A stretch of 64,000 nt of DNA. Origin: an uncultured Nitrososphaerota archaeon. Lineage in GTDB: Archaea; Korarchaeota; Korarchaeia; Korarchaeales; Korarchaeaceae. The stretch spans positions 64,001-128,000 of the forward strand of contig CAZQNA010000006.1 of assembly GCA_964594835.1 (NCBI GenBank). Direction: 5' to 3'. The notes under the pieces were generated by a model. The model saw nothing but the letters and a program-made list of their open reading frames with translations. It was not told where the DNA came from and made no database searches. Shown here in pieces: positions 2,631 to 56,313 of the stretch (within the stretch, counting starts at the first letter, position 1; each line of letters starts with the position of its first letter). Both the position numbers and the translations under genes were made by a program.

Positions 2631-2640
2631 GTCACGAGTC

Positions 2641-2760: not shown

Positions 2761-2999
2761 ATATATCTTCAATAGATTTAGCTGATTGAGATGACGCGAG
2801 ATGTTTCGGGAGTCGGCGTTAGGGCGACTCACCCGGGTGAAGGGATTGGGGCCGAGGGACCGGGCAAGTTCCACGGGTACTCCACGATCGACTGTGAGCT
2901 CAACCGGGAGATGGGCGGGATTCCGGACGAGAGGACCGCCGCCGGAGGACTCCGGCACGGCTTAAGGCGAGGCGGACTCACTCGGAGAGGTGAGAGCTG

Positions 3000-3158: not shown

Positions 3159-3182
3159 ATTGACAGTGAGAGAGCGCGCGAG

Positions 3183-3853: not shown

Positions 3854-5071
3854 ATGCCCTCGGATGTGAAGAGGCTCCTGGAGGCCCACGGGCGGCCGGA
3901 GAGGGAGGTGTACCTCGACTACGAGAACTCCGGGCGGGTCCCCCCGGAGGTCGTGGAGGCCATGCTCCCCTACTTCAACGAGGTGGGCTACGGCCACCCG
4001 TCCATAACCAACAGGCCGGGGTGGGAGGCCTTCGAACTCGTCCAGGAGACCGCCGAGACGGTTGCACGGACCCTGGGCGTGGATCCCGAGGACGTCCACT
4101 TCACACACAGCGGGACGGAGGCCAACAACCTCGCGATAATCGGCGCCGCGAGGGCCAACCGCTCCAGGGGGAGGAAGATAGTGGTCTCGGCCGTCGAGCA
4201 CCTCAGCGTGATACTGCCCGCGGAGTCGCTCGAGGACGCGGGGTTCACGGTGATCAGGGCCCCGGTGGACGGGGAGGGCTTCGTCGACCAGGACGTTCTG
4301 GCCGAGCTGGTGGACAGGGAGACCGTCTTGGTGTCGGTCCAGGCGGTCAACCACGAGATCGGCACCATTCAGAGGGTGAGGGGGCTCTCGGAGGTCGTGA
4401 GGGACAAGAACGCCGACGTCATATTTCACACGGACGCGTGCGACGCCTACGGCAGGATCAGGATCGACGCGGACGCCATGGGGGTCGACATGATCACCCT
4501 CAGCTCCCACAAGGTCCTGGGACCCAAGGGCGTCGGCGTGCTTTACGTGGCCGACGGCTTGAGGGTCGAGCCCGTGCTGAGGGGCGCCCTCAGCTCGGAG
4601 CCCCTCTGGCCGGGCGTGGAGAACGTCCCCGCCCTTGCGGGCTTCAAGAGGGCCGTGGAGCTCGCATTTGAGGACTTCGACGGCTCGAACGAGAGGGTCC
4701 GGTCCCTCAGGGATCGACTGATGGACTCCCTGCTCTCAGGGGTGCCGGAGGCCCTCCTGAACGGCCCTAGGGGCGAGGAGAGGGTGTCAGACAACCTCAA
4801 CCTCAGTTTCCTCCACGTGGAGGGGGAGGCCCTCACCGTGGAACTCAGCATGAGGGGGGTCTACGTCTCCAGCGGGAGCGCCTGCACGAGCCGGGTGCTC
4901 GAGCCCAGCCACGTCATGCTCGCCATAGGCAGGAGGTACGAGGAGGCCCACGGCAGCATCCTCTTCAGGCTCACGAGGTACCACACCCCTGAGGACGTGG
5001 ACTACGTTGCGAGACAGGTGCCAGAGGCCGTGGAGAGACTCCGTCGCATGAGCCCGCTGGGCAAGGGGTAA
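3854..5071 (+). CDS. iscS: Group I cysteine desulfurase
   Basis: SGTEANN, EH, HTDA, SSHK (PLP lysine) and SSGSAC catalytic motif. ATG at 3854 follows GGAGG. Confidence 0.92.
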   Translation: MPSDVKRLLEAHGRPEREVYLDYENSGRVPPEVVEAMLPYFNEVGYGHPSITNRPGWEAFELVQETAETVARTLGVDPEDVHFTHSGTEANNLAIIGAARANRSRGRKIVVSAVEHLSVILPAESLEDAGFTVIRAPVDGEGFVDQDVLAELVDRETVLVSVQAVNHEIGTIQRVRGLSEVVRDKNADVIFHTDACDAYGRIRIDADAMGVDMITLSSHKVLGPKGVGVLYVADGLRVEPVLRGALSSEPLWPGVENVPALAGFKRAVELAFEDFDGSNERVRSLRDRLMDSLLSGVPEALLNGPRGEERVSDNLNLSFLHVEGEALTVELSMRGVYVSSGSACTSRVLEPSHVMLAIGRRYEEAHGSILFRLTRYHTPEDVDYVARQVPEAVERLRRMSPLGKG

Positions 5072-30056: not shown

Positions 30057-31940
30057 CTAGTCGAGCTGGAGCCTCTCAGGCCTCCCCCGGCGTCGTCTTC
30101 CCTTATCCTCAAGCAATCCGGGTATATACTCGGCGAGTGACTTTCTCCTCCTCCTGGCCAAGGCCTCCTCGATCGAGCTAGAGGTCACGACCTCGTAGAC
30201 CCTGGCGACCTTCCCGGGCCTGCCCCTGAGAACCCTGCCGACCCTCTGGGCCATCTGTCTCGGAGACCCGCTCCCGCTGGCTATGATGGCCACATCGGCG
30301 TCGGGCACGTCGATCCCCTCGTCCAGCACCCTGGTCGTCACTATCACGTCCAGGTCGCACCTCCTGAAGGCGTCGAAGATCTCGGCCCTCTCCCTGGTCT
30401 TCCCCACCATCAGGGCCGATCTGATGCCCCTCTTTTCAAGCTCCCCCTGAATGGCCTCGGCCTGATCCACGTACTCGCAGAACACCAGTATCTTGCGCCC
30501 CCCCTCCGACTCCACGATGGACGCCACGACGGGGATCTTTGCCCTCGCCCTCAGGGCGTGCCTCTTCATCACGGCCAGCCTCGCGTTCTCATCCCTTACC
30601 CTGGCCAGCTGGGCCATCATGGCCCTGCGCTCGTCGGGCTCCATCCTGACCCTGACCACCCTGTGCTCCAGCCTGGCGAGCACGCCCATATTTACAAGCT
30701 CCCTGTACCCCACCTTGTAAACCACGTCTCCCGAGGAGAGGAAGATCAGGTGCTCGTTTCCGTCGCTCCTCTCCGGCGTGGCGGACAGGCCCAGGCGGTA
30801 CTTGGCTCTGCTGGCGAAGGCGACCTTCCTGAACGTGCTAGCTGGCACGTGGTGGACCTCGTCGAAGATCACGAGGCCGAAGAGGTTCCTCAGCCTGTCG
30901 ATGTGCTTGGCGACCGAGTTGTATATCCCGACCACGACGCCGGGCGACAGGTCCTTCTCCCTCCCGCTGAACTCCCCCGTAGTAACTCCCAGCTTGGACT
31001 CGATGAGTTCCCTCCACTGCGTGGCTAGCTCTGCCGTGACCACACAGACAAGCGTCCTCTGCCTCGTCCTGGCGATGGCCTCTAGCCCGACGAAGGTCTT
31101 CCCTCCCCCCGTGGGGATCACAACGGTGCCGAACCTCTCGGCCCTCTCCCACCTATCTACGGCCTCCCTCTGGAAGGGGTAGAGCTCGTAATCCCTGCTC
31201 GGAACTTCGATTGGTTGGGATGGCCACGAGACGTCCTCTTCAAACTCCAGCCCCTCGAAGCTGGCGAACCTCTTGAGGTGGTGGTACATGAATGGGGGGA
31301 CCACGTGGGCCAGCCTGCCCACCCGCCTCGCCAGCCTCATCCTCCTGGTCTCGAGACCCCGCCTGGTCTGGACGTTGACGCTCACGGTGAAGAGATCCTC
31401 CAGCCTCGAGAGCTGGTCTGGGGTGAGGCCCCCGGCCTCCAGGAGGATTCCCTCCTCGTGGTCCCGCACCGTCAACCTCCCCGGACCCCGGACCCTGGAG
31501 GCCGCCAGCCTGACGAGGTCCTCCCTCCAGTACCCGCCCACGGATCTCGCCAGCCTGAGCGCGCCGTCGATCCCCTCTGAGGACACGATCGCCGCGAGCT
31601 CGTCGGGATCGACGACGAGATAGTCCCCCTCCCTCCTGAAGGGGCGGACACGCCCATCTCCCGGGAGGAAGACGGCCAGCACCCCTCTCTCCGCCATCTC
31701 CCTCAGCCTGCCGTCCACCGACGACCTGAAGACCTCGACGACCTCCCTCACCGCGTCCTCCGGCACCCCGATCCTCCTGAGGACGTCCCACCCTCTGGAC
31801 AGCGCAAGCCCGGGATCCAAGACCCACGCCTTCTCCCCGGGGTCGAACCTGCAGATCTCCCTGATCAGCCCCAGGACCTCTTCGAACTCGTCGTCCCCAA
31901 GGCTCTTCACGAAGCTCTTCGATCCTACCCTGACCCTCAA
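30057..31940 (-). CDS. XPB/Rad25-like superfamily 2 helicase with N-terminal extension (start uncertain)
   Basis: LYPFQ, PTGGGKT, DEVH, LSATPER, DEGID and QRVGRVLR motifs. Confidence 0.88.
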   Translation of the reverse strand: MRVRVGSKSFVKSLGDDEFEEVLGLIREICRFDPGEKAWVLDPGLALSRGWDVLRRIGVPEDAVREVVEVFRSSVDGRLREMAERGVLAVFLPGDGRVRPFRREGDYLVVDPDELAAIVSSEGIDGALRLARSVGGYWREDLVRLAASRVRGPGRLTVRDHEEGILLEAGGLTPDQLSRLEDLFTVSVNVQTRRGLETRRMRLARRVGRLAHVVPPFMYHHLKRFASFEGLEFEEDVSWPSQPIEVPSRDYELYPFQREAVDRWERAERFGTVVIPTGGGKTFVGLEAIARTRQRTLVCVVTAELATQWRELIESKLGVTTGEFSGREKDLSPGVVVGIYNSVAKHIDRLRNLFGLVIFDEVHHVPASTFRKVAFASRAKYRLGLSATPERSDGNEHLIFLSSGDVVYKVGYRELVNMGVLARLEHRVVRVRMEPDERRAMMAQLARVRDENARLAVMKRHALRARAKIPVVASIVESEGGRKILVFCEYVDQAEAIQGELEKRGIRSALMVGKTRERAEIFDAFRRCDLDVIVTTRVLDEGIDVPDADVAIIASGSGSPRQMAQRVGRVLRGRPGKVARVYEVVTSSSIEEALARRRRKSLAEYIPGLLEDKGRRRRGRPERLQLD

Positions 31941-32054
31941 CCTCCGTACCGGCTGCCGCCCCAGAATAAAACTCGCGGCTCCGGGCCCGGAACTCGGCGT
32001 GTTGTTCAAAAATATTGACAGTAAAACGATAGAAAAAAATTAAATTCAGTCCGA

Positions 32055-32180
32055 ATGCCGTAGGAAGCGAGCCCCAGTTAGGGGTCTCGCTTAGTCGAGG
32101 GCCAAGAGGTGTGCCCTGGGGGTGTGGCCCTCCGGGTGACGTCCCCTCCGGGCGCGCCCGGGTGAGCGGCCCTAGGACAT
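32055..32180 (+). ncRNA. Candidate structured RNA or 5' leader
   Basis: Three adjacent hairpins (32065-32092, 32097-32132, 32133-32160) and a possible closing stem, just downstream of an A-run/TTAAAT promoter. No known family recognised. Confidence 0.35.
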
Positions 32181-32216
32181 GCTTCTTCTGGCCTGTGCGA
32201 CCGAGGTGAGGCTCCG

Positions 32217-33155
32217 TTGGGTTCACCTGATGAGCGGATCAGGAGGCTCGAGGAGTTGAGGAGGAGCGGGAAGATAAGCGAGGAGCTCTACAGGGAGCTG
32301 AGGGCCAAGTACGAGGCCGAGGCTACTGGACTGGCTCGAAGGGTCTCGGAGAGGAGGGAAAAGGGCGCCAAGGAGAGGGGAACGTCCCTGGGCAAGCTGA
32401 TCCCGGCCGTCGTCCTCGTGTTGCTCGTCGTGGGCGGGGCCATGTACGCGCTTCGGGGGAGGTCCGGCCTGGCGGGGGGAGGGCCGACTCCAACATCAAC
32501 GGGGGCGGGGGAGATCCCCCCAGAGTCGAGTCCAACGTCGCCCCCGGGCCCCGGAGGTCAGGCCGGCGGCGGAGCTGGGGCTGGGGCGGTCACGTTTGAG
32601 CAGGCCCTGGGGACGGCCGCCTCGGCGGCCCGCTCCTGGTGCCCTGACTCGTACCCGATCGAGGGCACCCTGCCCTGGATGGGCAGGGATTCAACCCTCC
32701 CCGGGTTCAGGGGGCTGGCCTCCGAGTGGGCGTTCAGGTTCTTCTGTCCCGGATCCAGAAAGACGGCCACGTTCCGGTACGTCTCGGGGTCGGTGGAGCA
32801 GGAGGAGATACTCGGTGAGCGCGAGTTCGAGTGGTCCCCCGACTTCACGCCTCAGCCGCTGAGCCCGATGGTGAGCGGCACCTCGGCCTTCGCCATCGCC
32901 TACACGTCGGGCGGTCGTCAGTTCGTCCAGGATCACCTGGGCGAGACGGTCTACGTCTTCATGGCAGTTGCCGGCTCTGACGTGGGGCGCTACTACGGTT
33001 GGAGCAACCTATACGGATGGCCCGGCGAGGTCAGCTCTGAGGAGGCGTGGGTAGTGATCTTCGCGCTCGGGGGAGGGGGCGAGGCCTACGGGGTTTGCCT
33101 GGACGCGGACACGGGTGAGGTGCTGGCTGCCGAGGGCTTCACCCCGGGAGGGTAG
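32217..33155 (+). CDS. Single-pass membrane protein: N-terminal GKISEELY helical (SHOCT-like) module, TM, Pro/Gly linker, PepSY-like extracellular domain
   Basis: GAGGTGA SD and TTG start; C-terminal AWVVIF...LDADTGEVL. Confidence 0.75.
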   Translation: MGSPDERIRRLEELRRSGKISEELYRELRAKYEAEATGLARRVSERREKGAKERGTSLGKLIPAVVLVLLVVGGAMYALRGRSGLAGGGPTPTSTGAGEIPPESSPTSPPGPGGQAGGGAGAGAVTFEQALGTAASAARSWCPDSYPIEGTLPWMGRDSTLPGFRGLASEWAFRFFCPGSRKTATFRYVSGSVEQEEILGEREFEWSPDFTPQPLSPMVSGTSAFAIAYTSGGRQFVQDHLGETVYVFMAVAGSDVGRYYGWSNLYGWPGEVSSEEAWVVIFALGGGGEAYGVCLDADTGEVLAAEGFTPGG

Positions 33156-33163
33156 GTGGTGAG

Positions 33164-34069
33164 ATGAGTTCTCCCGAGGAGAGGCTGAGGAAGCTGGAGG
33201 AGGCCCTCCTGGAGGGTAGAATAAGCGAGGAGACCTACAGGGAGCTGAGGGCCAAGTACGAGGCCGAGGCCAGGGCGGCTGGAAGACCAGCCCGCCCACC
33301 CGCCCCGGCTCGCCAGCGGGGGAGGAGCGGGAAGTGGCTAGCGGCGGCCTTGGGGGTCCTGATCCTGCTGGCGGCAGCTGGTCTTTGGTTCTGGGTCGTC
33401 CCGCATTGGCAGGGTCAGACTAGCCCTCTCCCAACCACCCCCGCCCCTCCGCCGGGCGGGGGTGGAGGTGGAGGTGGAGGTGGAGGCGGGGGCGGGCCGA
33501 GCCCCCCCATTACGACCACGACGCCGCCTGCATCGTCAGGTCGACCCCAAGAGGGCGTCCCCGCGGTGAGGCCGGGGTGGGCGACCTACAGGCTGACCCA
33601 GGCTGGGCAGGGGGCGGTCACGGTCACGTTCAGGATCTCCGGCCCGGAGCCCAAGGAGGGGAGGTCTTGCTGGAGGTACGTGACCCAGACGTGCCCCGAG
33701 GGACTATGCGACGTGATGTACAGCGAGACTGTCGTGTGGCTCGACGAGAACACCCTGGAGCCCGTGTACTGGGAGATGAACGTCTACCAGGGTGAGAACA
33801 GGGTGGTCCACCAGGAGGGCGCCGGGGGTCCCTCGGGCAAGCAGGTCTACGACCCCTCCAGGGTCCCGAGGGAGGCCACCTACCTGGGGAGGGAGTCCGT
33901 GACGGTTCCCGCCGGGACGTTCACCTGCGACAAGTTCTCCGTGTCGAAAGACGGTGTCACCACGACCATCTGGGTCAGCGACGAGGTCCCCTCGATCGGG
34001 ATAGTGAGGCTCGCCACTGAGGTGGAGGGCATCGAGTCAGAGATGGTGCTCGTGGACTACGGCCACTGA
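33164..34069 (+). CDS. Single-pass membrane protein: GRISEETY module, TM, poly-Gly linker, VPAGTF-type beta domain
   Basis: 14 consecutive Gly codons at 33455-33496; ESVTVPAGTFTCDKF motif. Confidence 0.8.
   Translation: MSSPEERLRKLEEALLEGRISEETYRELRAKYEAEARAAGRPARPPAPARQRGRSGKWLAAALGVLILLAAAGLWFWVVPHWQGQTSPLPTTPAPPPGGGGGGGGGGGGGGPSPPITTTTPPASSGRPQEGVPAVRPGWATYRLTQAGQGAVTVTFRISGPEPKEGRSCWRYVTQTCPEGLCDVMYSETVVWLDENTLEPVYWEMNVYQGENRVVHQEGAGGPSGKQVYDPSRVPREATYLGRESVTVPAGTFTCDKFSVSKDGVTTTIWVSDEVPSIGIVRLATEVEGIESEMVLVDYGH
33165..33295 (+). repeat. Left arm of a perfect 131-bp inverted repeat
   Basis: Base-by-base identical to the reverse complement of 35443-35573. Confidence 0.95.
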
Positions 34070-34139
34070 GGGTTCGCAGGGGGGCGACCCCCTGAGCAGC
34101 CGGTGTGTTAGATCACGCCATTCTGTAAAATTTATTTCC

Positions 34140-34153
34140 AAAAAAGTTATAAT
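34140..34153 (+). promoter_or_regulatory. BRE/TATA promoter (aaaaagTTATAA), probably giving a leaderless mRNA
   Basis: TATA lies about 25-30 nt upstream of the ATG at 34177. Confidence 0.65.
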
Positions 34154-34176
34154 ACACTCCTAAAACGAAACGAGCA

Positions 34177-34830
34177 ATGGAGAGAGTGGATAGAGAGGCC
34201 CAGATAAGGCGGAAGATGAAGGAGCTCAAGAGGCTCCGGAAGTCCGGGGAGATATCGGAGCCCACCTACCGCAAGATGATGGCCGAGCTGGAGGCGGAGC
34301 TCAGGGAGGCGAAAGAGGCGAAGAGAAAGAGGGGCAGGGAGGCTGCAAAGGCCGGGCGGCGGGGGGTTCAGCTCCCCTCTCTGCCGGGTCTTCCCTCCAG
34401 GGCACCCCGGAGGCGAGCGAGCTGGGTGCCACCCGTCCTCGGGGCCGTATTTGGCCTCCTCACGCTGGCGATCGCCTCGATCTACAGGCCAAGCGCGCTG
34501 GGCAGCTTCTCCGGACTCTTCATCCTGCCTGCCGCCGCGGGATTCGCCTGCGGCGTCCCCTGCTCGCTGGGCGGGGGCGGCCTTCGCGAGGCCTCCTACG
34601 CAGTCCTGGGCTCCCTGCTGGCCTACTCCCTGCTGTCGGCCGGGGCCCTGAAGACCTCGGCCGCTTGGGCCGGGGCCCTGGCCTCCACGCTCCTCACTCC
34701 AGAGGCCTCTGGCGATCCCCTCAGGCTGTCGGTCTCGGCATTCCTCTGTCTCCTCGCGCCGGCGTTCATCGGCGGGTACGCCGCCACGAAGGCCATCCCG
34801 AGGAGGGGGAGGCGATCCTCATGGGTCTGA
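34177..34830 (+). CDS. Membrane protein: N-terminal GEISEPTY module plus about 4 TM helices
   Basis: ELKRLRKSGEISEPTYRKMMAELE followed by hydrophobic segments. Confidence 0.78.
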   Translation: MERVDREAQIRRKMKELKRLRKSGEISEPTYRKMMAELEAELREAKEAKRKRGREAAKAGRRGVQLPSLPGLPSRAPRRRASWVPPVLGAVFGLLTLAIASIYRPSALGSFSGLFILPAAAGFACGVPCSLGGGGLREASYAVLGSLLAYSLLSAGALKTSAAWAGALASTLLTPEASGDPLRLSVSAFLCLLAPAFIGGYAATKAIPRRGRRSSWV

Positions 34831-35174
34831 TTGACGTCCTGATCAGGGGTGTGGTGCTGACCGACGCCCTGATTCGGAACCTGATGATGAGGGATACCCT
34901 GCCGATACACGCCTCTCTGGACTTTGGACTGGCCACGCTCGGGCTAGTGGGGCTCCTCTACCTCACCAACCTGAGGAAGAGGGCCGGCTTCTGGCTGGGG
35001 GTATTCGGACTCGGGGCCACGAGCTTCGTCTTCAGGAGCAAGATAGCAGGCGGGCTGCTCTCGCTTCTCTTCCTGAAGAGGTTCTGGAAGACCTTCCTGA
35101 TACTTGTCCTGTCCCTCCTCCTCATATATCAGGGAGTCGGGGACCTAGCCCTGATGTCCGTCGGCCTGCGCTGA
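34821..35174 (+). CDS. Small hypothetical membrane protein
   Basis: ATG at 34821 after GGAGG, overlapping the upstream stop; hydrophobic. Confidence 0.7.
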   Translation: MGLIDVLIRGVVLTDALIRNLMMRDTLPIHASLDFGLATLGLVGLLYLTNLRKRAGFWLGVFGLGATSFVFRSKIAGGLLSLLFLKRFWKTFLILVLSLLLIYQGVGDLALMSVGLR

Positions 35175-35199
35175 CCCCCTCACATTCCTCTCAGGCCGC

Positions 35200-35574
35200 T
35201 CAGGCGGACTCCAGCCTCCGTCTCTCCGCCTCCAGCTGCCTCATGTCAGAGATCAGCGACTTGAGCTCGGGATCCGTGGGCTCATACTCGCCGCTCTCTA
35301 TCAGCCTGAATACCCTCCACCCGATCTTCTGCGCGACCTTGTCCATCTTTCCCTCGATCAGCTTGATCTCGGCCTTGGCCTTGGCGCTCTCGAGGCTCTC
35401 CTTTATCTTATCCAGAACCCCTCCCTCCTCGCCCTCCTCCTTGCGGGCTGGTCTTCCAGCCGCCCTGGCCTCGGCCTCGTACTTGGCCCTCAGCTCCCTG
35501 TAGGTCTCCTCGCTTATTCTACCCTCCAGGAGGGCCTCCTCCAGCTTCCTCAGCCTCTCCTCGGGAGAACTCAA
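35200..35574 (-). CDS. Soluble coiled-coil protein whose first 44 aa are identical to those of the 33164 protein
   Basis: TTG start; MSSPEERLRKLEEALLEGRISEETYRELRAKYEAEARAAGRPAR. Confidence 0.78.
   Translation of the reverse strand: MSSPEERLRKLEEALLEGRISEETYRELRAKYEAEARAAGRPARKEEGEEGGVLDKIKESLESAKAKAEIKLIEGKMDKVAQKIGWRVFRLIESGEYEPTDPELKSLISDMRQLEAERRRLESA
35443..35573 (-). repeat. Right arm of the perfect 131-bp inverted repeat
   Basis: Reverse complement of 33165-33295. Confidence 0.95.
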
Positions 35575-35753
35575 CGCGGGAGCACCTTAGAGGTTCATCC
35601 GGCCTCTCTTTTTACCCTTTCCAACCCCATAACCGCTCTCGGTCACTACGCGTTAAATCTGTTGACGGTCCTCTCGCCATCCAGACCGCCCGAGCGCCGG
35701 CTCGGCCGCCGCAACGTTAATGGCCTGTCCGGGCCGTCCCCTTGGGCGGTACG

Positions 35754-36398
35754 ATGGGGTCGACCGAGTTCAAGTCCAAGGAGGAGGCCAAGAGGGCCCT
35801 TGACCAGCTCGACGAGGAGCTCATAGAGGGCAAGATCAGCGAGGAGGAGTACCGCAGGAGGAAGGCCGACATCGAGAGGCAGATCGAGATCATGGAGCTC
35901 GAAGACATGCTCATAGAGGGCAAGATAACCGAGGAGGAGTACAGGAGAGCCAAGGCCTCCCTGCTGGGGAAGGCCGAGCCGGTCGAGGCCGTGTCGCCCG
36001 AAGGGGTGTCGGAAGTCGCGAGGAAGATCTCTCAAATGGCGTCGAAACTCTCCGAGATCAGGGAGAAGAGGGAGAAGCTGAGGGACCTCCTCATATCCAA
36101 GGAGATATCCGAGGCCACGTTCCAGAAGCTTGACTCCGAGTACGAGGAGAAGGAGAAGTCCCTTGAGCTCAAGGTGAAGGAGCTCGAGGAGGAGTCCAGG
36201 GAGAGGCTGAAGGAGATCGAACAGAAGCTGGAGGAGATCAAGCTGATGAGGGAGGAGATGAAGGCCAGGCACCTCCTGGGGGAGATCCCGAAGTCGGAGT
36301 ACGAGTCCAAGGACGGAGAGCTGGCCTCTCAGGCCGAGAGGCTGGAGGCGGAGAGGGAGAGCATATCCTCCGCCCTGAAGGCCGTCGGTCTGGAGTGA
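35754..36398 (+). CDS. CdvA-like coiled-coil protein with two extra N-terminal GKISEEEY modules
   Basis: KLRDLLISKEISEATFQKL...RLKEIE...MKARHLLGEIPKSEY...ERESI follows the CdvA coiled-coil pattern as I recall it; no PRC barrel. Confidence 0.7.
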   Translation: MGSTEFKSKEEAKRALDQLDEELIEGKISEEEYRRRKADIERQIEIMELEDMLIEGKITEEEYRRAKASLLGKAEPVEAVSPEGVSEVARKISQMASKLSEIREKREKLRDLLISKEISEATFQKLDSEYEEKEKSLELKVKELEEESRERLKEIEQKLEEIKLMREEMKARHLLGEIPKSEYESKDGELASQAERLEAERESISSALKAVGLE

Positions 36399-36479
36399 CC
36401 GGATCATCTGCGATAGGATCTGGGGCTGAGGCGGCTTCCACGCGTGGAGGCGGGCGAGGGACGCGGTCTAGGCCGAGGG

Positions 36480-37688
36480 TCACCACCTCCTCCCGTCTCC
36501 GGTGAAGGGTCTGAAGGTTATCTTGTCCCTCTCCCTGATTATCTGCCTCAGGAGCCTTCTGGCCCTCTCCGGGGGCAGGTTGAGGAAGAGCGCTGCGAGG
36601 TGCTTGCAGAACATCTTCTTCTGGGACTGCCTCGACCAGTCGGCGCAGTCGTGGAGGATCACCCCCTGCCGGAGGTCTATCGTCACGTCGTAGCCCCTCA
36701 CCCTGGCCATCAGGATGTCCCCCCTGTCCGTCAGGACCTCCACCTGGCTGGCCGGCATCTCGATGGCCCTCTCAAGTCTCCTCTCATCTGTGATGGACCT
36801 GAGGAGCCCGAGAACCTCTTCCCTCCCCCTCGGAACCTCCTCGCGGACCTGCGGCCCGCCGATGAAGCCCTCTAGTGAGGTCGGGGCCCTCGATGCGATC
36901 TCCTCCCTCCAGGCCCTGATCCTCTTGAGGGCCTCCTCCTGCCGGGAGTCTGCCGCCCCCAGGATCTTCAGCATCAGGATGGCGTTCTCCGGGGCATACG
37001 CGTGGTAGTGGTTGTTGAAGTAGCCGTAGACCCTCTTCGCCGAGGAGGCCGCCTCCTCGACGGCCCTGGCCCAGGGCCTCAGCTCATCCTCAGAGTAGAG
37101 GTAGTTGTACGGGACCTTCTCTCCCCTCCCGTGCCACCTGAAGTAGCCCACGTCCGACGTGACCACGGCCCTGGGAGGGGCGCCTCCCCAGTCCGACACG
37201 ACGTACGCCGCGCCGGCGGACTCCATCATCCTGAGGACCCTCGGGTCGTCCCAGCTCGGGTGCCTGAACTCGAGGGCGAGGGTGGCCCACTCAGGGGCGA
37301 GCGAGAGGAGGTGCTCCAGCCTGTCCGGCTTGGCCCTGAAGCTTGGCGGGAGCTGGACGAGGATCGGGCCCAGCTTTCCGGCGGAGCGGAGGGGCTCCAG
37401 AGAGTCGAAGAAGAGCTCCAAGTCCGCCTTGATCCCCCTGTCGAGCCTGAGCCTCTTCCTGTGGGTCACGTCCCTCAGCATCTTGACCGAGAAGTCGAAG
37501 CCCTCCGGCGTGACCCTGGCCATGCCCGCCAGGGTCTCGGCATCGAGGATCTGGTAGAAGGTGGAGTTGACCTCGGTGGTGTTGAACAGCCTCGAGTAGA
37601 GCGTGAGCCTGGCCCCTCCTGACCTGGGATAGAAGGGGCCGACCCAGTCGGCGTAGTCCCACCCGGAGGTTCCTATCCTCAGGTCCAA
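36480..37688 (-). CDS. DUF72 (YecE-like TIM barrel) fused to a C-terminal SWIM zinc finger
   Basis: IGTSGW, EVNSTFY, QLPPSF, EFRH, RWHG, YFNN; HDC.DW......FCKH. Real start is probably the TTG at 37688. Confidence 0.88.
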   Translation of the reverse strand: MDLRIGTSGWDYADWVGPFYPRSGGARLTLYSRLFNTTEVNSTFYQILDAETLAGMARVTPEGFDFSVKMLRDVTHRKRLRLDRGIKADLELFFDSLEPLRSAGKLGPILVQLPPSFRAKPDRLEHLLSLAPEWATLALEFRHPSWDDPRVLRMMESAGAAYVVSDWGGAPPRAVVTSDVGYFRWHGRGEKVPYNYLYSEDELRPWARAVEEAASSAKRVYGYFNNHYHAYAPENAILMLKILGAADSRQEEALKRIRAWREEIASRAPTSLEGFIGGPQVREEVPRGREEVLGLLRSITDERRLERAIEMPASQVEVLTDRGDILMARVRGYDVTIDLRQGVILHDCADWSRQSQKKMFCKHLAALFLNLPPERARRLLRQIIRERDKITFRPFTGDGRRW

Positions 37689-44229: not shown

Positions 44230-45150
44230 ATGGCGCGGGTGGAGCTGGCATCCCTCCGGCACGTGGGGGGAATAGTCGAGGTGCACCGCTCCGACATCGA
44301 GTCGCCCAGGCAGTGGACCGAGGGGGGCTGGAGGGAGGCCTCCCCCGGGGAACTGGATCCCTGCCAGTGGACTCTGAACGGCGGACCGTGGATGAGCGTT
44401 GAGACCTGCGCGATACACGTCAACAACCTCCTCCTGGCGGGTCAGACCCCGCTGGTGGCCCTGGAGGGGGACCGAGTCGTGGGTGAGGCCGAGGTGATCC
44501 TGGGGGAAGAGGGTGGGAGGAGGGGCCTCGTGGCTCACCTCAGCGTGATAGAGGTGCACAGGGACTTCAGGGGGAGGGGGGTGGGCAGGTCCCTCGTCGA
44601 GTCAGCCCTGGCGGTCGCCAGGGACCGCGGCGTTGAGGCGGTGACGGTCGTCCCGGAGGAGGACGCGAAGGGTTTCTACCGGGCCACGGGCTTCTGCCCG
44701 GCAGAGCGGTGGGCGGAGATCACAGCATCCCCCGGAGACCTCCCGGAGGTCGCGATGGAGGCCGAGCTGTTCTCGCCGTCCCTGGAAGATTTCGAGGGGA
44801 TGGAGCTCGTGGTCGGGAGGTACCAGAGCGGCCTGAACATCGCCCTCAACGTCCTGGAGGAGTTCGCCGGGTGCGACGCGCTCGGGGCCGGACGATCCTG
44901 GAGGGGCGTCGCGGAGGGGGTGGAGTTCATCGCCCACGTCTGGGACGCCCCCTTCCTCGGGGAGCCCGTGGCGTACGTCTGGACCGCAGCGTCCCCCGGG
45001 AGGCCCCTCGAGCTGGAGTCCAGGGTGGCCCTCTCAGCCGTCCTCACCCTGGCAGGCCGTCGAGTCCGGACCCTCATCCCCGAGGGGCTGGCCGGTGAGC
45101 TCGGGCTTTCCGGACGCGGGGCAGTCGAGTTCTGGGCTCGGGGGGTGTAG
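44230..45150 (+). CDS. GNAT acetyltransferase with a C-terminal extension
   Basis: VHRDFRGRGVGRSL and AKGFYRATGF motifs. Confidence 0.8.
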   Translation: MARVELASLRHVGGIVEVHRSDIESPRQWTEGGWREASPGELDPCQWTLNGGPWMSVETCAIHVNNLLLAGQTPLVALEGDRVVGEAEVILGEEGGRRGLVAHLSVIEVHRDFRGRGVGRSLVESALAVARDRGVEAVTVVPEEDAKGFYRATGFCPAERWAEITASPGDLPEVAMEAELFSPSLEDFEGMELVVGRYQSGLNIALNVLEEFAGCDALGAGRSWRGVAEGVEFIAHVWDAPFLGEPVAYVWTAASPGRPLELESRVALSAVLTLAGRRVRTLIPEGLAGELGLSGRGAVEFWARGV

Positions 45151-51635: not shown

Positions 51636-51956
51636 TCAGGCCCCGCTGAAGATCCTCATCCTCCTCTGAATCGTCATCTTGATGCGAAGGAGCCAGCTCT
51701 GGGCCTCCTCCCTCGCCTGGGGGGACACCTCCCCGGACCCCAGGATTGAGGCTATGGCCCCGACGGACTCCCTGAGGCCGAACCTCTCGAGGGGCTCGGC
51801 CAGGGTGTCCGCGGCCTGAACGGCCTCCTCGAACCTCCCCGAGTCGAGGAGGTCGATCAGCCTCAGCAGCTGGGCCAGGTACCTCTCCTCGGCGTAGCTG
51901 CAGGCCACGGCCAGCCTCTTCAGGTAGAACTGGAGGCTCTCCACCCCGTCTCCCAA
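51636..51956 (-). CDS. Hypothetical helical protein
   Basis: Typical codon usage; fills the operon gap. Confidence 0.65.
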   Translation of the reverse strand: MGDGVESLQFYLKRLAVACSYAEERYLAQLLRLIDLLDSGRFEEAVQAADTLAEPLERFGLRESVGAIASILGSGEVSPQAREEAQSWLLRIKMTIQRRMRIFSGA

Positions 51957-51990
51957 CGTCGGGGTTCACCCCGCGGGATCTGATTAACCT

Positions 51991-52440
51991 TCACCGCTCG
52001 GGGCCCAGCTCGAACTCCCCCTCCTCGCACACCCTCCCGGTGAAGAAGAGCTCGGCTATCTCTCCGGCCGACCTGGCGAACACCTCGGGCCCCTCGTCGT
52101 CGGGGAGGCCCACGGAGAGGACCGTGATCGAGCACCCCGTGTGCTCCTCCAGGTGTATAGAGAAGACCAGCTCCCCGTCCATCTCCTCCCACTCCTCGTC
52201 CTCCGACAGGGACTTCCTGTAGTACCTCGCCCTCCACCTGCCGAACTCGATCGTGACGGCCGAGGCCCCGACGAACCTGGCGAGCCCCTCGACCGCCTCG
52301 AGCAGGTACCTCCTCAGCTCCTCAACGTCCATGGAAAGGAGCGACCAGGGGTCCCCCTTGGCCCTCCCGACAAGCTCCTCCCACCTGCGCTCGATTGCCT
52401 CCAGGTCAACCTCGGCGTCGGCCAATTTCCCTCTCTCCAC
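51991..52440 (-). CDS. Hypothetical acidic protein
   Basis: Typical codon usage; follows the PadR gene. Confidence 0.65.
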   Translation of the reverse strand: MERGKLADAEVDLEAIERRWEELVGRAKGDPWSLLSMDVEELRRYLLEAVEGLARFVGASAVTIEFGRWRARYYRKSLSEDEEWEEMDGELVFSIHLEEHTGCSITVLSVGLPDDEGPEVFARSAGEIAELFFTGRVCEEGEFELGPER

Positions 52441-52990
52441 CCACAGAATCCTGGGTACTAAAACTCTGCCGCTCGGTGGACGCCGTCGCCTCTCTGATCT
52501 CTCGGGCCGCCGTCCTGAGGACCTCGACGACCCTCTCCCTCACCTGGGGGTCGGAGAGGCGGACCTCTACCTCGAAGAGCGCCGCCCTCACCTCCCTGAG
52601 CGCGTCCACGATCTCGCCCGGGATGCTGGGCTCCAGCAGTGCCCTGGCCGCGTCCACGAACCTCTCGTAGTCCCTCCTCAGGAGGGACTTCGCCTCCTCC
52701 AGCCTCTCTGCCAGCTCCCCCCCCTTGGGCGTCAGGTAGTAAACCTTCCTCCTCCCCTCCTCCCTCCGGGCCACGACCCCCCGGGACTCTAGGTCCCTGA
52801 GGAGCGGGTAGATGGTCCCGGGAGAGGGCCTCCAGTGACCAGTCCTTCGCTCTATCTCCCTGATCATGTCGTAGCCCGTCAGCTCCCCCTTCTCCCTCAG
52901 CATCCTGATGATAGCCATCCTGAGCACTCCCCTCCCGCCGACGGGGATGGGGTGCCTCCCAGCCCCGCGGTCCCTATCTTCCTCTGACAC
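52406..52990 (-). CDS. PadR-family transcriptional regulator
   Basis: GYDMIREI...WRPSPGTIYPLL...RKVYYLT. Confidence 0.9.
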   Translation of the reverse strand: MSEEDRDRGAGRHPIPVGGRGVLRMAIIRMLREKGELTGYDMIREIERRTGHWRPSPGTIYPLLRDLESRGVVARREEGRRKVYYLTPKGGELAERLEEAKSLLRRDYERFVDAARALLEPSIPGEIVDALREVRAALFEVEVRLSDPQVRERVVEVLRTAAREIREATASTERQSFSTQDSVGGEREIGRRRG

Positions 52991-53076
52991 CAGAGCGCCG
53001 GCTCACCCATAGGGTATTAACGTATCCGAGCGTGCCAGAGTGGACGCTTATAGCTCTGGTTCCCCACGACGGCCCG

Positions 53077-53571
53077 ATGGGGCCCGGATACGATCTCGTG
53101 ATCCTCGACCTCGACCTCACCGTCTGGGACCACAGGGACGCCTCCTCCCTGAGCCCTCCCTACAGGAGGATCTCGGAGGACGCTGCAGAGGATTCGGAGG
53201 GCGTGAGGGTCCGCCTCAGGCCGGGGGTGAGGTCCTTCCTTGAGAGGTGCGAGAGAGAGGGGGTCCTGGTCTCCGTGGCCAGCTGGAACAGGCCCGAGAA
53301 GGTGTTCCCCCTTCTGGAGGCGCTGGGGCTGGACCGCCACCTCTGGAACCCCGTGGTAGAGTTCCACCCCGACAAGGTGGCCATGGTGAGGAAGATCCTC
53401 GGCCGCCTCGGGCCTGGGTGGGATGGGAGGGCCCTCTTCGTCGACGACAAGGAGGAGCACGTCAGGGCAGTGGCCGAGGCGTTCGATAGGGTCGACGCCG
53501 TCCGGTTCGGGGTGGACGTCATGTCTTTCCGGGAGCTGGAGGAGCTGGTGTTCGGCCGGCGGGAGGTGTGA
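53077..53571 (+). CDS. Magnesium-dependent phosphatase-1 (HAD superfamily)
   Basis: DLDLTVWD, ASWN, HPDK and FVDD motifs. Confidence 0.88.
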   Translation: MGPGYDLVILDLDLTVWDHRDASSLSPPYRRISEDAAEDSEGVRVRLRPGVRSFLERCEREGVLVSVASWNRPEKVFPLLEALGLDRHLWNPVVEFHPDKVAMVRKILGRLGPGWDGRALFVDDKEEHVRAVAEAFDRVDAVRFGVDVMSFRELEELVFGRREV

Positions 53572-53574
53572 GGC

Positions 53575-54492
53575 CTGGAGTACGCGGAGCTCGGCCGGAC
53601 GGGCATAAGGGTGTCCAGAGTTGGGCTGGGGACCTGGCAGATCGGGACCTCCTACTGGGGGTGGGGGGCCGAGTTCGACAGGGAGAAGGCGATTCGGGTG
53701 ATAAGGACCGCCCTTGAGCTCGGCGTGAACCTCATCGACACGGCCGAACTCTACGGGTGGGGCACCTCCGAGAGGGTGGTGGGTGAGGCCGTCAGGGACG
53801 TGAGGGACGAGGTGGTCATAGCCACGAAGGTATCCCCGTGGCACCCGACACCCCGCGGGGTGAGGAGGGCGCTGGAGGGGAGCCTGAGGAGGCTCGGCGT
53901 GGACTACGTGGACCTCTACCAGATCCACTGGCCCAACCCCCTGGTCCCCCTGGGCCGGACCATGAGGGCGCTGGAGCGGCTACTGGAGGAGGGGAGGATC
54001 AGGGCGATAGGCGTGAGCAACTTCTCCCTCAGGAGGCTTGAGGAGGCCAGGAGTCACCTCAGCAGGCACGACGTGGCCTCCAACCAGGTCGAGTACAACC
54101 TGCTGAAGAGGGACGTGGAGGGGGACCTCCTGCCCTACTGCGAGAGGGAGAAGATCACGCTGATGGCCTACAGTCCGCTGGCGCAGGGCCTGCTGACGGG
54201 GAAGTACGGCCCCGGAAGGATGCCCCCGGGGCTCCAGAGGAGGATCACGGTGCTCCTGAGGTACGGCGGGTCGGGGAGGTTGTCCAGGGTTCTGGGGGCG
54301 CTGAGGGAGGTCGCCGATGCCAGAGGCGTCACGCCGTCTCAGGTCGCCCTGAACTGGGTGCTCAGGAGTCCCGCCGTGGTTGCCATACCGGGGGCGAAGA
54401 GGGAGGAGCACGTGAGGCAGAACGCCCGGGCTGTGGGCTGGTCTCTGAGCCCGGGGGAGTTCGAGGTCATCGAGAGGGCCCTCCGGGGCTGA
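53575..54492 (+). CDS. Aldo/keto reductase (probable CTG start)
   Basis: (M)EYAELGRTGIRVSRVGLGTW, DTAELYG, ATK, DLYQIHWP, GVSNF and AYSPL motifs. Confidence 0.93.
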   Translation: MEYAELGRTGIRVSRVGLGTWQIGTSYWGWGAEFDREKAIRVIRTALELGVNLIDTAELYGWGTSERVVGEAVRDVRDEVVIATKVSPWHPTPRGVRRALEGSLRRLGVDYVDLYQIHWPNPLVPLGRTMRALERLLEEGRIRAIGVSNFSLRRLEEARSHLSRHDVASNQVEYNLLKRDVEGDLLPYCEREKITLMAYSPLAQGLLTGKYGPGRMPPGLQRRITVLLRYGGSGRLSRVLGALREVADARGVTPSQVALNWVLRSPAVVAIPGAKREEHVRQNARAVGWSLSPGEFEVIERALRG

Positions 54493-54507
54493 GGTCGCCG
54501 TTGGCCC

Positions 54508-56313
54508 TCACGGCCTCCTGAGGACGATCAGGCTCTCCGTGGGGATGGCGCCCCTCTCGCTGGACTTGGCGAGGTGCACGTCGAACCTGAGCTCGGGCTC
54601 AAGTCCGGCGAGGTCCGCAAGCTCCTCCATCCAGTCCGCGATCGGGAGCCTCCTCACCTCGCCCCTCACCCTCATCACCTGCTCCGCCCCGATCACCCAC
54701 GTGACCCGGCCCCCTGGCCTGACCACCCTCGCCAACCCCTCGAGGACCGTCGATATCCCCGAGAAGTACCTCAGGAGCGCTGCGGCTAGCTTCGGCCTGG
54801 CGGGCCTGAGCCAGGCGAGGAACTCCCTGACGCCCTCAGGCAGGCCGTCAAGCGCGGACTCGCTCCACTCCCTCGAGCTGGAGCCGCGGACGGAGCCCAG
54901 GGTCTCCCTGTCCACGGACAGGTGGTCGCCGGTGAGCCCCAGGACGTAGAGGGAGTAGAGCTGATCCCCCACGTAGTCTATGGCGGTGAGGTAGGGCGGG
55001 CTGGTGACTACACCGTCGAAGGGTCCCCTCAGATCGGGGGGCAGCCTCTCTAGGACCTCTCCGAGCCTCGTCGAGTCACCCCTGATCACCTCGGCGTCCG
55101 CCGGATTCAGGGGCTTGACCTCCTCCCTGTAGAGCTGGAGGAACCTGAGGGCGAAGCCCATCCTCCTGAGGTGGTCCAGGTAGGTGGAGACCACCTTCTC
55201 GGGGGGCTGCTTGGTGAGCATGCTCCTCATCCAGTAGGCCAGGGGGACCTTGAGGAGGTCGGAGAGGTCTCGGTCCTCCACCCCCCGGCATATCTCCAGC
55301 ACCCTGGCGACCACCCCCAGGGAGTCCCTCCTGACCCGGGACGCCAGCCTCTCGGGCAGCCTCGACAGCAGCTCCTCCACGTCCTCTGTCGAGGGGCGAG
55401 AGCGCAGCTCCTCCTCCACGGAGGAGATCAGCCTCGACACCTCCGAGGGGTCCATCCGGAGCGCCCTGACCTTCACCCTGCTCACCATGGCGAGGAGGGG
55501 GTTGATCTCCACCCCCACCGACCTGATCCCCATGAGGGAGGCCTCCACGTTGAGGGTCCCGCAGCCCGTGAACGGGTCAAGGACCAGGTCGCCCTCCCGC
55601 AGGCCCATGAGGTTCATGGCCGCCCTTATCATCCTCGGGAAGAACTTCCCGTGGATCCCGAAGAACCAGTGGGTCAGGTAGAGCTGCGGGGCCCTTCGGT
55701 CGTCCATGAAGTCCTCTATGGTCTTGAAGAGCCTCGCCGACTCCGCCGAGTAGGGCCTCTTCACCCCCACCTGTAGGTGCCTCAGCCCCCCGCGGAACAT
55801 CCTGTCCACGTCCGACCCGTCCCTCGCGAGCCTGCAGACGAAGTCCGAGAACTCGTAGGCCGTCTGATCAGGGACGACCCTCATGCACCTCCCGCCGTCT
55901 ACCCTGTAAAGGGTCGCCAGCGGGCTCAGCTCGACCTCGGCTCCCCCGCCGGATGGATCGAGCCCCATGTCGGCGGCGGGAGAGTCGTCGTCGCCCCTCC
56001 AGGCCAGGTAGACCTCCCTGAAGTATGAGAGCCTCTCCACACTCCTCAGGAGGCCTCGAGTGGGCTCCAGCCTCCTCGCCAGGAAGCCCTCGAGCGCCCC
56101 CGGGTAGGGGTGCCAGCAGATCCTGTCGTGGAGCCTCAGGTCATCGTCCACGAGGAACCTCAGCTCTCCCAGGAGAACGTCCACGGCGTTTCTCACGTCC
56201 TCTACCGCCGATCCGACGGCGGCCTCTGCCTCAGCCCTGGCCAGGGGAAGCTCTGAGTCGTTCTGGACGTCGTGCTTCAGCTTGAAGTAGGCAATCAGGG
56301 TCCCGCCAGCCAA
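54508..56313 (-). CDS. Amino-methyltransferase (N4-cytosine DNA MTase-like) with an N-terminal extension
   Basis: TH....HGKFFP, VLDPFTGCGT (motif I) preceding VVTSPPY (motif IV). Confidence 0.8.
   Translation of the reverse strand: MAGGTLIAYFKLKHDVQNDSELPLARAEAEAAVGSAVEDVRNAVDVLLGELRFLVDDDLRLHDRICWHPYPGALEGFLARRLEPTRGLLRSVERLSYFREVYLAWRGDDDSPAADMGLDPSGGGAEVELSPLATLYRVDGGRCMRVVPDQTAYEFSDFVCRLARDGSDVDRMFRGGLRHLQVGVKRPYSAESARLFKTIEDFMDDRRAPQLYLTHWFFGIHGKFFPRMIRAAMNLMGLREGDLVLDPFTGCGTLNVEASLMGIRSVGVEINPLLAMVSRVKVRALRMDPSEVSRLISSVEEELRSRPSTEDVEELLSRLPERLASRVRRDSLGVVARVLEICRGVEDRDLSDLLKVPLAYWMRSMLTKQPPEKVVSTYLDHLRRMGFALRFLQLYREEVKPLNPADAEVIRGDSTRLGEVLERLPPDLRGPFDGVVTSPPYLTAIDYVGDQLYSLYVLGLTGDHLSVDRETLGSVRGSSSREWSESALDGLPEGVREFLAWLRPARPKLAAALLRYFSGISTVLEGLARVVRPGGRVTWVIGAEQVMRVRGEVRRLPIADWMEELADLAGLEPELRFDVHLAKSSERGAIPTESLIVLRRP

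What the first reader, a model, noticed from the sequence alone, without database searches (positions are those of the whole stretch)
33165..35573. Perfect 131-bp inverted repeat forming the 5' ends of two convergent genes: a possible invertible expression switch
Seen in sequence: 33165-33295 is identical to the reverse complement of 35443-35573, including synonymous positions. Identity starts at the second base of the start codon (ATG versus TTG) and ends after codon 44. Recombination between the arms would invert 33296-35442 and leave both ORFs intact. It would swap which product (TM surface protein or soluble coiled coil) sits behind the ATG/operon context and which behind the TTG/divergent promoter. 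The two internal genes carry their own promoter (34140) and would survive inversion. Inference: phase variation by inversion, or very recent gene conversion. No site-specific recombinase is in the window.
Basis: partly seen in the sequence, partly recalled or inferred. Interest (0 to 1): 0.85.

Follow-up and report, generated by a model that had tools for sequence, protein, structure and literature searches.

The report
Mirrored identical starts of two genes
Two neighbouring genes of an uncultured vent archaeon face each other and begin with the same 131 letters, most likely because one gene's start was recently copied onto the other; nothing yet shows that the piece between them flips as a switch.

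Summary
Arms 33165-33295 and 35443-35573 are a 131-nt, 100% inverted repeat. They encode codons 1-44 of convergent genes A (33164-34069, +) and D (35574-35200, -). The repeat is not an assembly artefact. In two independent samples the k=31 contigs show the same four junctions, and the arm has about twice the depth of its flanks.

The arm encodes a helical N-terminal module found 11 times in this genome. D orthologues in other strains and in another genus carry this same module behind the same TTG start. Distant A-type proteins have their own diverged version of it. A and D use identical codons at 43 of 43 shared positions. Old paralogues match at about 0.6, and a D orthologue at 29 of 36. The genome holds two more perfect tracts inside diverged paralogues.

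Best reading: a recent non-reciprocal copy (gene conversion) from D onto A. No recombinase gene lies on the contig. No other family genome has such a pair (1 of 36). Inversion would leave both proteins intact and both with start signals. Whether the segment actually flips could not be tested, because only contigs were available, not raw reads.

The parts
33165..33295 (+). Left arm: bases 2-132 of gene A (codons 1-44). It encodes a helix-turn-helix-shaped N-terminal module plus the start of a linker.
   Evidence: the D model shows helices 4-16 and 22-39 and a low-confidence linker at residues 40-50
35443..35573 (-). Right arm: bases 2-132 of gene D, the exact reverse complement of the left arm.
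33164..34069 (+). Gene A, 301 aa: N-terminal module, one transmembrane helix, a Pro/Thr/Gly-rich linker with a run of 14 glycines, and a DUF3108-type ectodomain. ATG start 8 nt after the stop of gene U, preceded by GGTGGTGAG.
   Evidence: PF11306 scores 34.5 bits against a cut-off of 26; same architecture in P0033, P0032 and P0066
35200..35574 (-). Gene D, 124 aa: the same N-terminal module, then an all-helical soluble part of unknown fold. TTG start preceded by AAGGTG.
   Evidence: model mean pLDDT 81.7; 0 PDB fold matches at E<=0.001; orthologues P0002, P0003, P0005 and G009
33296..35442 (.). The 2147-nt segment between the arms (A body, genes B and C, D body). It would invert if the arms recombine. 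Inversion was not observed.
   Evidence: a single 2207-nt contig in X3
34177..34830 (+). Gene B, 217 aa: a diverged copy of the N-terminal module followed by several membrane helices.
   Evidence: SHOCT 19.0 bits, below the cut-off of 27; orthologue in G009 at 41% identity
34821..35174 (+). Gene C, 117-aa small membrane protein that overlaps the end of B.
   Evidence: 80% identical in G009; no Pfam match
32217..33155 (+). Gene U, 312 aa: a paralogous N-terminal module (88/132 nt identical to the arm, with a 50-nt stretch at 96%), a transmembrane helix and an ectodomain. TTG start. Gene A follows in operon-like spacing.
   Evidence: (D2)
34120..34170 (+). AT-rich promoter-like box upstream of B.
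   Evidence: composition only; no archaeal promoter model was available
35604..35618 (-). AT-rich box (GGGTAAAAAGAGAGG on the minus strand) 30-44 nt upstream of D's TTG. Candidate own promoter of D.
   Evidence: inference from position
32002..32060 (.). AT-rich region between the helicase gene and U. Candidate divergent promoters.
32010..35693 (.). Accessory block U-A-B-C-D, about 3.7 kb. It is absent between the helicase gene and gene E in same-genus genomes G004 and G003.

Best explanation
The repeat is the footprint of a recent non-reciprocal copy by homologous recombination (ectopic gene conversion). The first 44 codons of gene D overwrote the homologous N-terminal module of gene A. A lies 2.1 kb away in the opposite orientation, inside a lineage-specific 3.7-kb block of genes that all start with this module.

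Shown: the repeat is real. It is exactly the module-plus-linker coding segment. D's orthologues carry this module, and distant A-type proteins carry a diverged one. Identity extends to all synonymous sites.

Inferred: the direction (D to A), the mechanism, and the recency.

As a by-product, the two arms are now a substrate for recombination that could flip the 2147-nt segment. That flip would only exchange which body sits behind the U-operon/ATG context and which behind D's own promoter/TTG context. I do not think it is a dedicated switch.
For: (1) A and D use the identical codon at 43/43 shared positions. Six older paralogues in the same genome match at 7/17 to 15/22, gene U at 19/26, and a D orthologue from another strain (L028) at 29/36.
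(2) The module belongs to D by descent. Residues 5-30 are invariant in 5 of 5 D sequences, including one from another genus at 65% overall identity. L028 has the same TTG start and the same upstream AAGGTG context.
(3) A's architecture is old and has its own module. P0033, P0032 and P0066 (36%, 32% and 29% identical over the full length) have a diverged module, a transmembrane helix and the same type of ectodomain. Homology between A and D would therefore begin at the start codon, which explains the 5' edge.
(4) The 3' edge (codon 44) lies in the predicted disordered linker of D, residues 40-50.
(5) The same genome has two more tracts of this kind. Tandem transporter paralogues on C1 are 50-77% identical over their first ~780 aligned nt and then 100% identical for 526 nt. 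Helicase paralogues on C10 and C1 are 50-68% identical around a 151-nt perfect tract.
(6) U carries a 50-nt patch that is 96% identical to the arm within a module that is 88/132 identical overall.
(7) No recombinase gene lies on the 146-kb contig.
(8) Only G000 has two copies at 97% identity or more among the 36 family genomes searched, of which 16 have the module.
(9) The assembler, which seems to have used k=55 (contig ends overlap by 55 nt), resolved one orientation through a 131-nt repeat. This fits one dominant orientation in that sample.
Against: Orientation polymorphism was not tested, so recurrent flipping is not excluded.

The perfect tract fills the whole homologous segment up to both edges. 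It includes 9 linker codons that are not conserved in other paralogues. A single conversion event usually ends inside the homology. In the Salmonella tuf model, conversion is said to abort at the ends of homology (PMC5485169, passages read).

A contig of run X5, 91% identical, covers the end of U and the first 14 nt of the arm. So a diverged relative may already have the U-arm junction. In that case the arms are older and are kept identical by repeated exchange.

Nine of the 9 A homologues in family genomes lack the module. A de novo fusion is therefore possible instead of overwriting.

The genome does encode a 211-aa resolvase/invertase-type serine recombinase and 4 tyrosine recombinases on other contigs.

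By the bacterial criteria of Milman et al. (PMC9881135, passages read), repeat length and CDS distance are met, and asymmetry is met if counted per operon.
Confidence: 0.62

Rival explanations
1. Recombination-driven flip-flop with a regulatory role. The arms recombine often, through the cell's general recombination machinery. This inverts 33296-35442 and so exchanges which body (membrane ectodomain protein A or soluble helical protein D) is co-expressed with U from the ATG context, and which is expressed from D's own TTG context. The repeated exchange also keeps the arms identical.
For: The geometry works: both ORFs stay intact after inversion. The internal genes B and C have their own AT-rich box. 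The arms are identical up to both edges of the homology. There is a hint that a 91% relative already has the U-arm junction (X5). Repeat length (131, threshold 44) and CDS distance (1130, threshold 2588) meet the thresholds for gene-altering inversions in bacteria (PMC9881135). Invertons have been reported in a few archaea (PMC10028968, passages read).
Against: Neither state silences a gene. Both contexts have a Shine-Dalgarno-like motif and a start codon, so the pay-off is only a change in dosage. The arms lie at the far ends of the two genes: orientation matching is 0.35-0.49 against a threshold of 0.58. The arrangement is not conserved (1 of 36 family genomes). The D body follows TTG in 3 of 3 assemblies where the start can be read. 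One orientation was assembled through a repeat longer than the apparent k.
Confidence: 0.2
2. Site-specific inverton. A dedicated tyrosine or serine recombinase encoded elsewhere in the genome recognises sites inside the arms and inverts the segment as programmed phase variation.
For: The genome encodes one small resolvase/invertase-type serine recombinase (C3:128640-129074, 211 aa) and 4 tyrosine recombinases.
Against: None of them is on the window's contig. No arm-like sequence lies near them: the only other arm matches are module paralogues. A 131-nt perfect repeat that coincides with a protein module is far longer than a recombinase site needs. There is no conservation in relatives.
Confidence: 0.06
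3. De novo gene fusion. An inverted duplication of D's first 131 nt landed in front of a module-less A gene and created a new fusion protein. No earlier homology was involved.
For: Nine of the 9 A homologues in family genomes begin directly with the membrane helix. The arm includes linker codons that other paralogues do not share.
Against: The copy would have to start by chance exactly at base 2 of a start codon, in frame, next to a ready ribosome-binding motif. Module-bearing A-type proteins exist elsewhere.
Confidence: 0.08
4. Assembly artefact. The repeat, or the A fusion, results from a collapsed or chimeric metagenome assembly.
For: The genome is a 24-contig draft that seems to have been assembled at k=55, shorter than the repeat. 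The full-length A protein is not in the protein collection.
Against: All four junctions and the doubled arm depth are seen in k=31 contigs of two independent samples.
Confidence: 0.03

Closest known systems
Gene conversion between the inversely oriented tufA/tufB genes of Salmonella enterica (PMC5485169; summary and passages read)
   Same: Two homologous coding segments in inverse orientation on one chromosome are kept or made identical by non-reciprocal, recombination-dependent transfer in contiguous tracts.
   Different: Here only a 131-nt N-terminal module is shared, between two otherwise unrelated genes 2.1 kb apart, in an uncultured archaeon. The tuf genes are 1185 nt long, homologous over their full length and 762 kb apart. 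The mechanism is inferred here, not measured.
Gene-altering programmed inversions in bacteria, such as hsdS invertons (Milman et al. 2023, PMC9881135; abstract and passages read)
   Same: Inverted repeats inside two oppositely oriented coding sequences. Inversion would exchange the downstream parts behind a constant upstream part. Repeat length and CDS distance pass that paper's thresholds.
   Different: There is no adjacent recombinase and no truncated silent partner. The arms are at the far ends of the genes rather than close together, and no intra-species variation was seen. That study did not scan archaea, by its own statement.
RecA-dependent inversion among sapA S-layer gene homologues of Campylobacter fetus (recalled; my library search for it found no paper)
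   Same: As I recall it, conserved 5' coding regions of paralogous surface-protein genes in opposite orientation serve as recombination substrates without a dedicated invertase.
   Different: There, a single promoter is moved between cassettes, so only one is expressed. Here, both genes keep expression signals in both states.
Earlier notes of this scan on other archaeal genomes (e1-5460734, e1-976397)
   Same: Perfect inverted repeats of 123-161 bp shared by two paralogous genes of uncultured archaea, read by follow-up agents as gene-conversion tracts or an inversion scar rather than switches.
   Different: They concern other genes (TIR, serine kinase) and other genomes. They are unchecked AI notes and are not independent evidence.

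Membership tests
Gene-altering programmed inversion (criteria of PMC9881135) | Inverted repeat of 44 bp or more inside two oppositely oriented coding sequences | tested here: met
   131 nt, 100%
Gene-altering programmed inversion (criteria of PMC9881135) | Short distance between the two coding sequences (2588 bp or less) | tested here: met
   1130 nt between the stop codons of A and D
Gene-altering programmed inversion (criteria of PMC9881135) | Gene orientation that brings the repeats close together (orientation matching 0.58 or more) | tested here: not met
   0.35 per CDS, 0.49 per operon
Gene-altering programmed inversion (criteria of PMC9881135) | Asymmetry: one partner lacks the part upstream of the repeat (0.87 or more) | tested here: inconclusive
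   0 per CDS and 0.999 per operon. D nevertheless has its own TTG, a GGTG motif and an AT-rich box.
Gene-altering programmed inversion (criteria of PMC9881135) | Both orientations seen within the species or in reads | not testable with these tools
Site-specific inverton | Recombinase gene next to the invertible segment | tested here: not met
   PF00589 matches on C7 (3) and C3 (1), PF00239 on C3 (1), PF01548 none. None on C6.
Ectopic gene-conversion tract | Sharp-edged block of full identity, synonymous sites included, between sequences whose relatives are diverged | tested here: met
   43/43 identical codons against about 0.6 in paralogues and 29/36 in an orthologue
Ectopic gene-conversion tract | The converted segment was already homologous in both genes | tested here: inconclusive
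   Distant A-type proteins P0033, P0032 and P0066 have their own module, but 9 of 9 family-level A homologues lack it.
Ectopic gene-conversion tract | The donor can be identified by descent | tested here: met
   The D module is invariant at residues 5-30 in 5 of 5 D sequences. L028 has the same start context.
SHOCT domain (PF09851), for the shared N-terminal module | Score at or above Pfam's gathering cut-off (27 bits) | tested here: not met
   The arm peptide gives no SHOCT match at E<=10. B scores 19.0 bits and E 22.7 bits. I call it SHOCT-like by resemblance only.
DUF3108 (PF11306), for the ectodomain of A | Score at or above Pfam's gathering cut-off (26 bits) | tested here: met
   34.5 bits, residues 228-276

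The most novel reading that the evidence does not exclude
The arms are an old inverted repeat that is actively kept identical, and the 2.1-kb segment flips by general homologous recombination without any dedicated invertase. This would make it a coding-sequence inverton in an uncultured hydrothermal-vent archaeon (a same-family genome's record is titled Nitrososphaerota). It would exchange which of two proteins with the same N-terminal assembly module is made together with the membrane protein U.
Probability: 0.2. Interest if true: 0.6.

Novelty: new member of a known kind. Interest (0 to 1): 0.3.

Why it matters
If the main reading holds, this is a clean natural example of module-level gene conversion between otherwise unrelated genes in an uncultured archaeon. 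Together with two further tracts in the same genome, it suggests that ectopic conversion is frequent in this lineage. That matters for reading paralogue histories and for assembling such genomes. It also warns that a perfect inverted repeat inside genes is not enough to call a switch. If the segment does flip, it would be one of very few inversion systems known in archaea, and one that works without an invertase. That claim needs reads that were not available here.

Tried and rejected
Read-level test of orientation: the look-up of sequencing runs listed 9 runs, 4 of them holding 94% or more of the sampled words. All are held only as k=31 contigs. Laying X1, X3, X5 and X6 showed contigs that stop 30 nt inside the arms and none that bridges an arm. 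So neither one orientation nor two could be shown.

The scan of metagenome contigs with A gave 1 locus (L028), which turned out to be D-C-B of another strain. The scan of genome contigs with D gave 2 loci: the G009 contig and an N-terminal match only. The viral-contig scan with C gave 0 relatives.

The first protein search with A residues 45-301 was swamped by the glycine/proline-rich linker (8000 candidates, 1 hit). A repeat with residues 128-301 found only the Logan fragment P0004 and two weak hits. Proteins under 165 aa were not searched, so a truncated A on the JGI or ENA contigs may have been missed. Those contigs (7736, 6944 and 16194 nt) could not be fetched.

Other searches that found nothing useful:
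- Rfam: 4 matches, all far below their gathering scores.
- The sigma-70 promoter scan found 0 sites and does not apply to archaea.
- ESM Atlas for D: no usable hit.
- Foldseek of the D model against the PDB: 0 matches at E<=0.001.
- Pfam on the arm peptide, D, U and C at E<=10: only sub-threshold hits.
- GC content of the block (0.60-0.70) does not differ from the genome's 0.649.
- No tRNA gene at the block or at the loci of G009 and G004.
- Literature search for the C. fetus sap system: 0 papers. Search on gene conversion in archaea: nothing relevant among the 10 listed.
- Earlier findings by place and by sequence: none.

Supplementary files of the inverton papers, including the table of archaeal invertons of PMC10028968, were not seen.
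Full report
THE OBSERVATION

The repeat finder reports arms 33165-33295 and 35443-35573: 131 nt, 100% complementary, 2147 nt apart. Gene A starts with ATG at 33164. Gene D starts with TTG at 35574 on the minus strand. Identity begins at the second base of both start codons and ends after codon 44. The bases just outside the arms differ at both ends. Reverse-complementing 33296-35442 in silico gives a 124-aa ORF on the left and a 301-aa ORF on the right. From residue 2 on, these equal D and A. In the whole 1.82-Mb, 24-contig genome there are only these two perfect copies. Among repeats of at least 95% identity this is the fifth longest overall and the longest inverted one.

IS IT AN ARTEFACT?

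Contig ends of the assembly overlap by exactly 55 nt. The assembler therefore probably used k=55, and the orientation of the spacer rests on read pairs. Four public runs hold 94-97% of the sampled words of the locus. X1, X2 and X4 come from one sample that may be the source. X3 is an independent hydrothermal-vent metagenome. All are stored as k=31 contigs.

Laid on 32000-36800, these contigs stop 30 nt inside the arms, as expected for a repeat:
- X1: 32461-33194, 33266-34947, 35106-35472, and one from 35544 onward.
- X3: 32853-33194, one contig 33266-35472 (the spacer plus 30 nt of each arm), and one from 35544 onward.

Arm contigs have about double depth: 33.6 against 16.5-19.6 in X3, and 15.9-17.9 against 6.8-9.9 in X1. 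So the repeat, the junction of the arm with the A body and the junction with the D body are real in two samples. The same data cannot tell the orientation of the spacer, and no raw reads were offered.

THE GENES

U (32217-33155), A (33164-34069), B (34177-34830) and C (34821-35174) lie on the plus strand and D (35574-35200) on the minus strand.

- A has the shared N-terminus, one membrane helix, a Pro/Thr/Gly-rich linker with 14 glycines in a row, and a DUF3108 domain (34.5 bits against a cut-off of 26).
- D is soluble. An AlphaFold model from 5 sequences (mean pLDDT 81.7) shows helices 4-16 and 22-39, a low-confidence linker at residues 40-50, then three more helices. It has no PDB fold match at E<=0.001.

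The arm thus encodes one small helical module plus the first part of a linker. I call the module SHOCT-like only by resemblance. B and E give SHOCT hits below Pfam's cut-off (19.0 and 22.7 bits against 27), and the arm peptide gives none.

The module is a common N-terminal tag in this lineage. There are 11 matches in this genome. It occurs in 16 of 36 family genomes, with up to 13 copies in G009, in front of open frames of very different lengths. A genome of the same family (G009) is titled 'uncultured Nitrososphaerota archaeon' in its record.

THE SURROUNDINGS

In same-genus genomes G004 and G003 the helicase gene (30057-32009 here) and gene E (35754-36398 here) are direct neighbours, about 130 nt apart in G004. 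DUF72 and the next gene follow, as in the window. G001 and G002 were not examined for this.

The block U-A-B-C-D (about 32010-35693) is therefore an accessory insertion in this species, or a loss in the others. Its GC content matches the genome's.

D's body was found in 2 of 36 family genomes, G000 and G009. G009, a different genus, has B, C, D (minus strand) and a U-like gene, but no A and no inverted repeat.

WHOSE N-TERMINUS IS IT?

D sequences from other strains (P0002, P0003, P0005 = L028) and from G009 all carry this module. Residues 5-30 are invariant in 5 of 5 sequences, although G009's D is only 65% identical overall. L028 shows the same TTG start and the same upstream AAGGTG context as D in the window. 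So the arm is D's by descent.

A's relatives fall into two groups:
- Nine of 9 homologues in family genomes (29.7-33.1% identical in the tblastn re-alignment; first found) begin directly with the membrane helix.
- A search of 1.84 billion representatives found full-length relatives P0033, P0032 and P0066 (36%, 32%, 29% identical). These have their own diverged module in front of the helix and the same type of ectodomain.

A's architecture is therefore old. It is plausible that A had a homologous module of its own, which D's sequence overwrote. That explains why identity starts at the start codon: homology starts there.

HOW RECENT?

Among positions with the same residue, identical codons are used at the following rates:

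| Comparison with the arm | Identical codons |
|---|---|
| A against D | 43/43 |
| D orthologue of L028 | 29/36 |
| Gene U | 19/26 |
| Six older paralogues | 7/17 to 15/22 |

The identity is thus not due to codon bias or to selection on the protein. The copy is younger than the split between this strain and the L028 strain, unless the arms are being kept identical by repeated exchange.

IS CONVERSION PLAUSIBLE HERE?

The same genome has two further perfect tracts:
- Two tandem transporter paralogues on C1 are 50-77% identical over their first ~780 aligned nt, then 100% identical for 526 nt up to the stop.
- Two helicase paralogues on C10 and C1 are 50-68% identical around a 151-nt perfect tract.

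Gene U has a 50-nt patch 96% identical to the arm, inside a module that is 88/132 identical overall.

EVIDENCE BEARING ON A SWITCH

Against a programmed switch:
- No Phage_integrase, Resolvase or IS110/Piv match lies on the 146-kb contig. The genome has 4 tyrosine recombinases (three on C7, one on C3) and one 211-aa resolvase/invertase-type serine recombinase on C3.
- No other family genome has two near-identical copies of the module (1 of 36).
- Both contexts have translation signals: GGTGGTGAG-ATG for A and AAGGTG-N8-TTG for D. D also has an AT-rich box 30-44 nt upstream. Inversion would silence nothing.
- The D body follows TTG in 3 of 3 assemblies where the start can be read: the window, L028/P0005 and P0002. 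It is unknown whether those strains have a second arm.
- By the thresholds that Milman et al. derived for bacteria (PMC9881135, passages read), orientation matching is not met (0.35-0.49 against 0.58).

For a switch, or at least for recurrent exchange:
- By the same thresholds, repeat length and CDS distance are met. Asymmetry is 0 per gene but 0.999 per operon.
- The tract fills the homology to both edges and includes 9 linker codons that paralogues do not share. This is not the usual outcome of one conversion event (PMC5485169, passages read).
- A 91%-identical contig in X5 covers the end of U and the first 14 nt of the arm. This hints that a diverged relative may already have the junction.

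VERDICT

The best explanation is a recent gene-conversion-type copy of D's N-terminal module onto A (0.62). The arms may recombine and flip the segment. A regulatory flip-flop (0.20) or an enzyme-driven inverton (0.06) is not excluded but has no positive evidence. This is a known kind of event in a new place, of modest interest. Two earlier notes of this scan on other archaeal genomes reached similar readings. They are unchecked and I did not test them.

Noticed in passing
G000:C1:33084-35680 (outside the window): Two tandem transporter-like paralogues are 50-77% identical over their first ~780 aligned nt, then 100% identical for 526 nt to the stop codon. This looks like a textbook conversion tract.
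   Followed up: partly
G000:C10:40935-41085 and G000:C1:130688-130838: A 151-nt perfect tract inside two helicase paralogues that are otherwise 50-68% identical.
   Followed up: partly
G000:C8:28800-45050 and 51880-55200: Hundreds of near-identical repeats of 36-46 nt at regular spacing, in two blocks of opposite orientation. A 123-nt, 98.4% inverted repeat (45027-45149 / 51773-51895) lies at their inner ends. They look like two large CRISPR arrays with mirrored leaders. No CRISPR tool was run.
   Followed up: no
window 33454-33500: A GGN repeat encodes 14 consecutive glycines in the linker of A. The laid contigs are cut there (33450-33501), so the length of this run may vary or be hard to assemble.
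   Followed up: no
L023 (G009 contig) 4407-4559 and 8352-8503: The PIN-B-C-D-U block of G009 is bracketed by direct repeats of about 150 nt at 73-79% identity. It is followed by a 101-aa fragment that resembles the N-terminus of the arginyl-tRNA-synthetase-like gene at 1329-3224, which suggests a segmental duplication or an old insertion. The gene order is a circular permutation of the order in the window.
   Followed up: partly
window 32060-32216: About 160 nt of GC-rich sequence lie between the AT-rich box at 32002-32060 and the TTG start of U: a long leader or an unannotated small RNA. No Rfam match.
   Followed up: partly
window 34073-34175: One low-depth contig of run X5 skips these 101 nt, which hold the AT-rich box upstream of B. 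Only 26 nt lie on the shorter side, so it may be spurious.
   Followed up: no
window 35754-36398: Gene E has two copies of the module and a CdvA-like coiled coil (25.6 bits, below the cut-off of 30). It sits next to the helicase gene in G003 and G004. Its AACGTTAATGG box upstream is conserved in G004.
   Followed up: partly
G000:C3:128640-129074 and C3:135450-135938: A 211-aa serine recombinase with a catalytic domain and a C-terminal helix-turn-helix lies 6 kb from a tyrosine recombinase. This may be an integrated element.
   Followed up: partly
P0002 (protein of a JGI contig of 7736 nt): A D variant 99% identical in its body has R9K and a 5-residue shorter stretch inside the arm region. The N-terminal module thus changes faster than the rest of D, or that assembly is disturbed there.
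   Followed up: no
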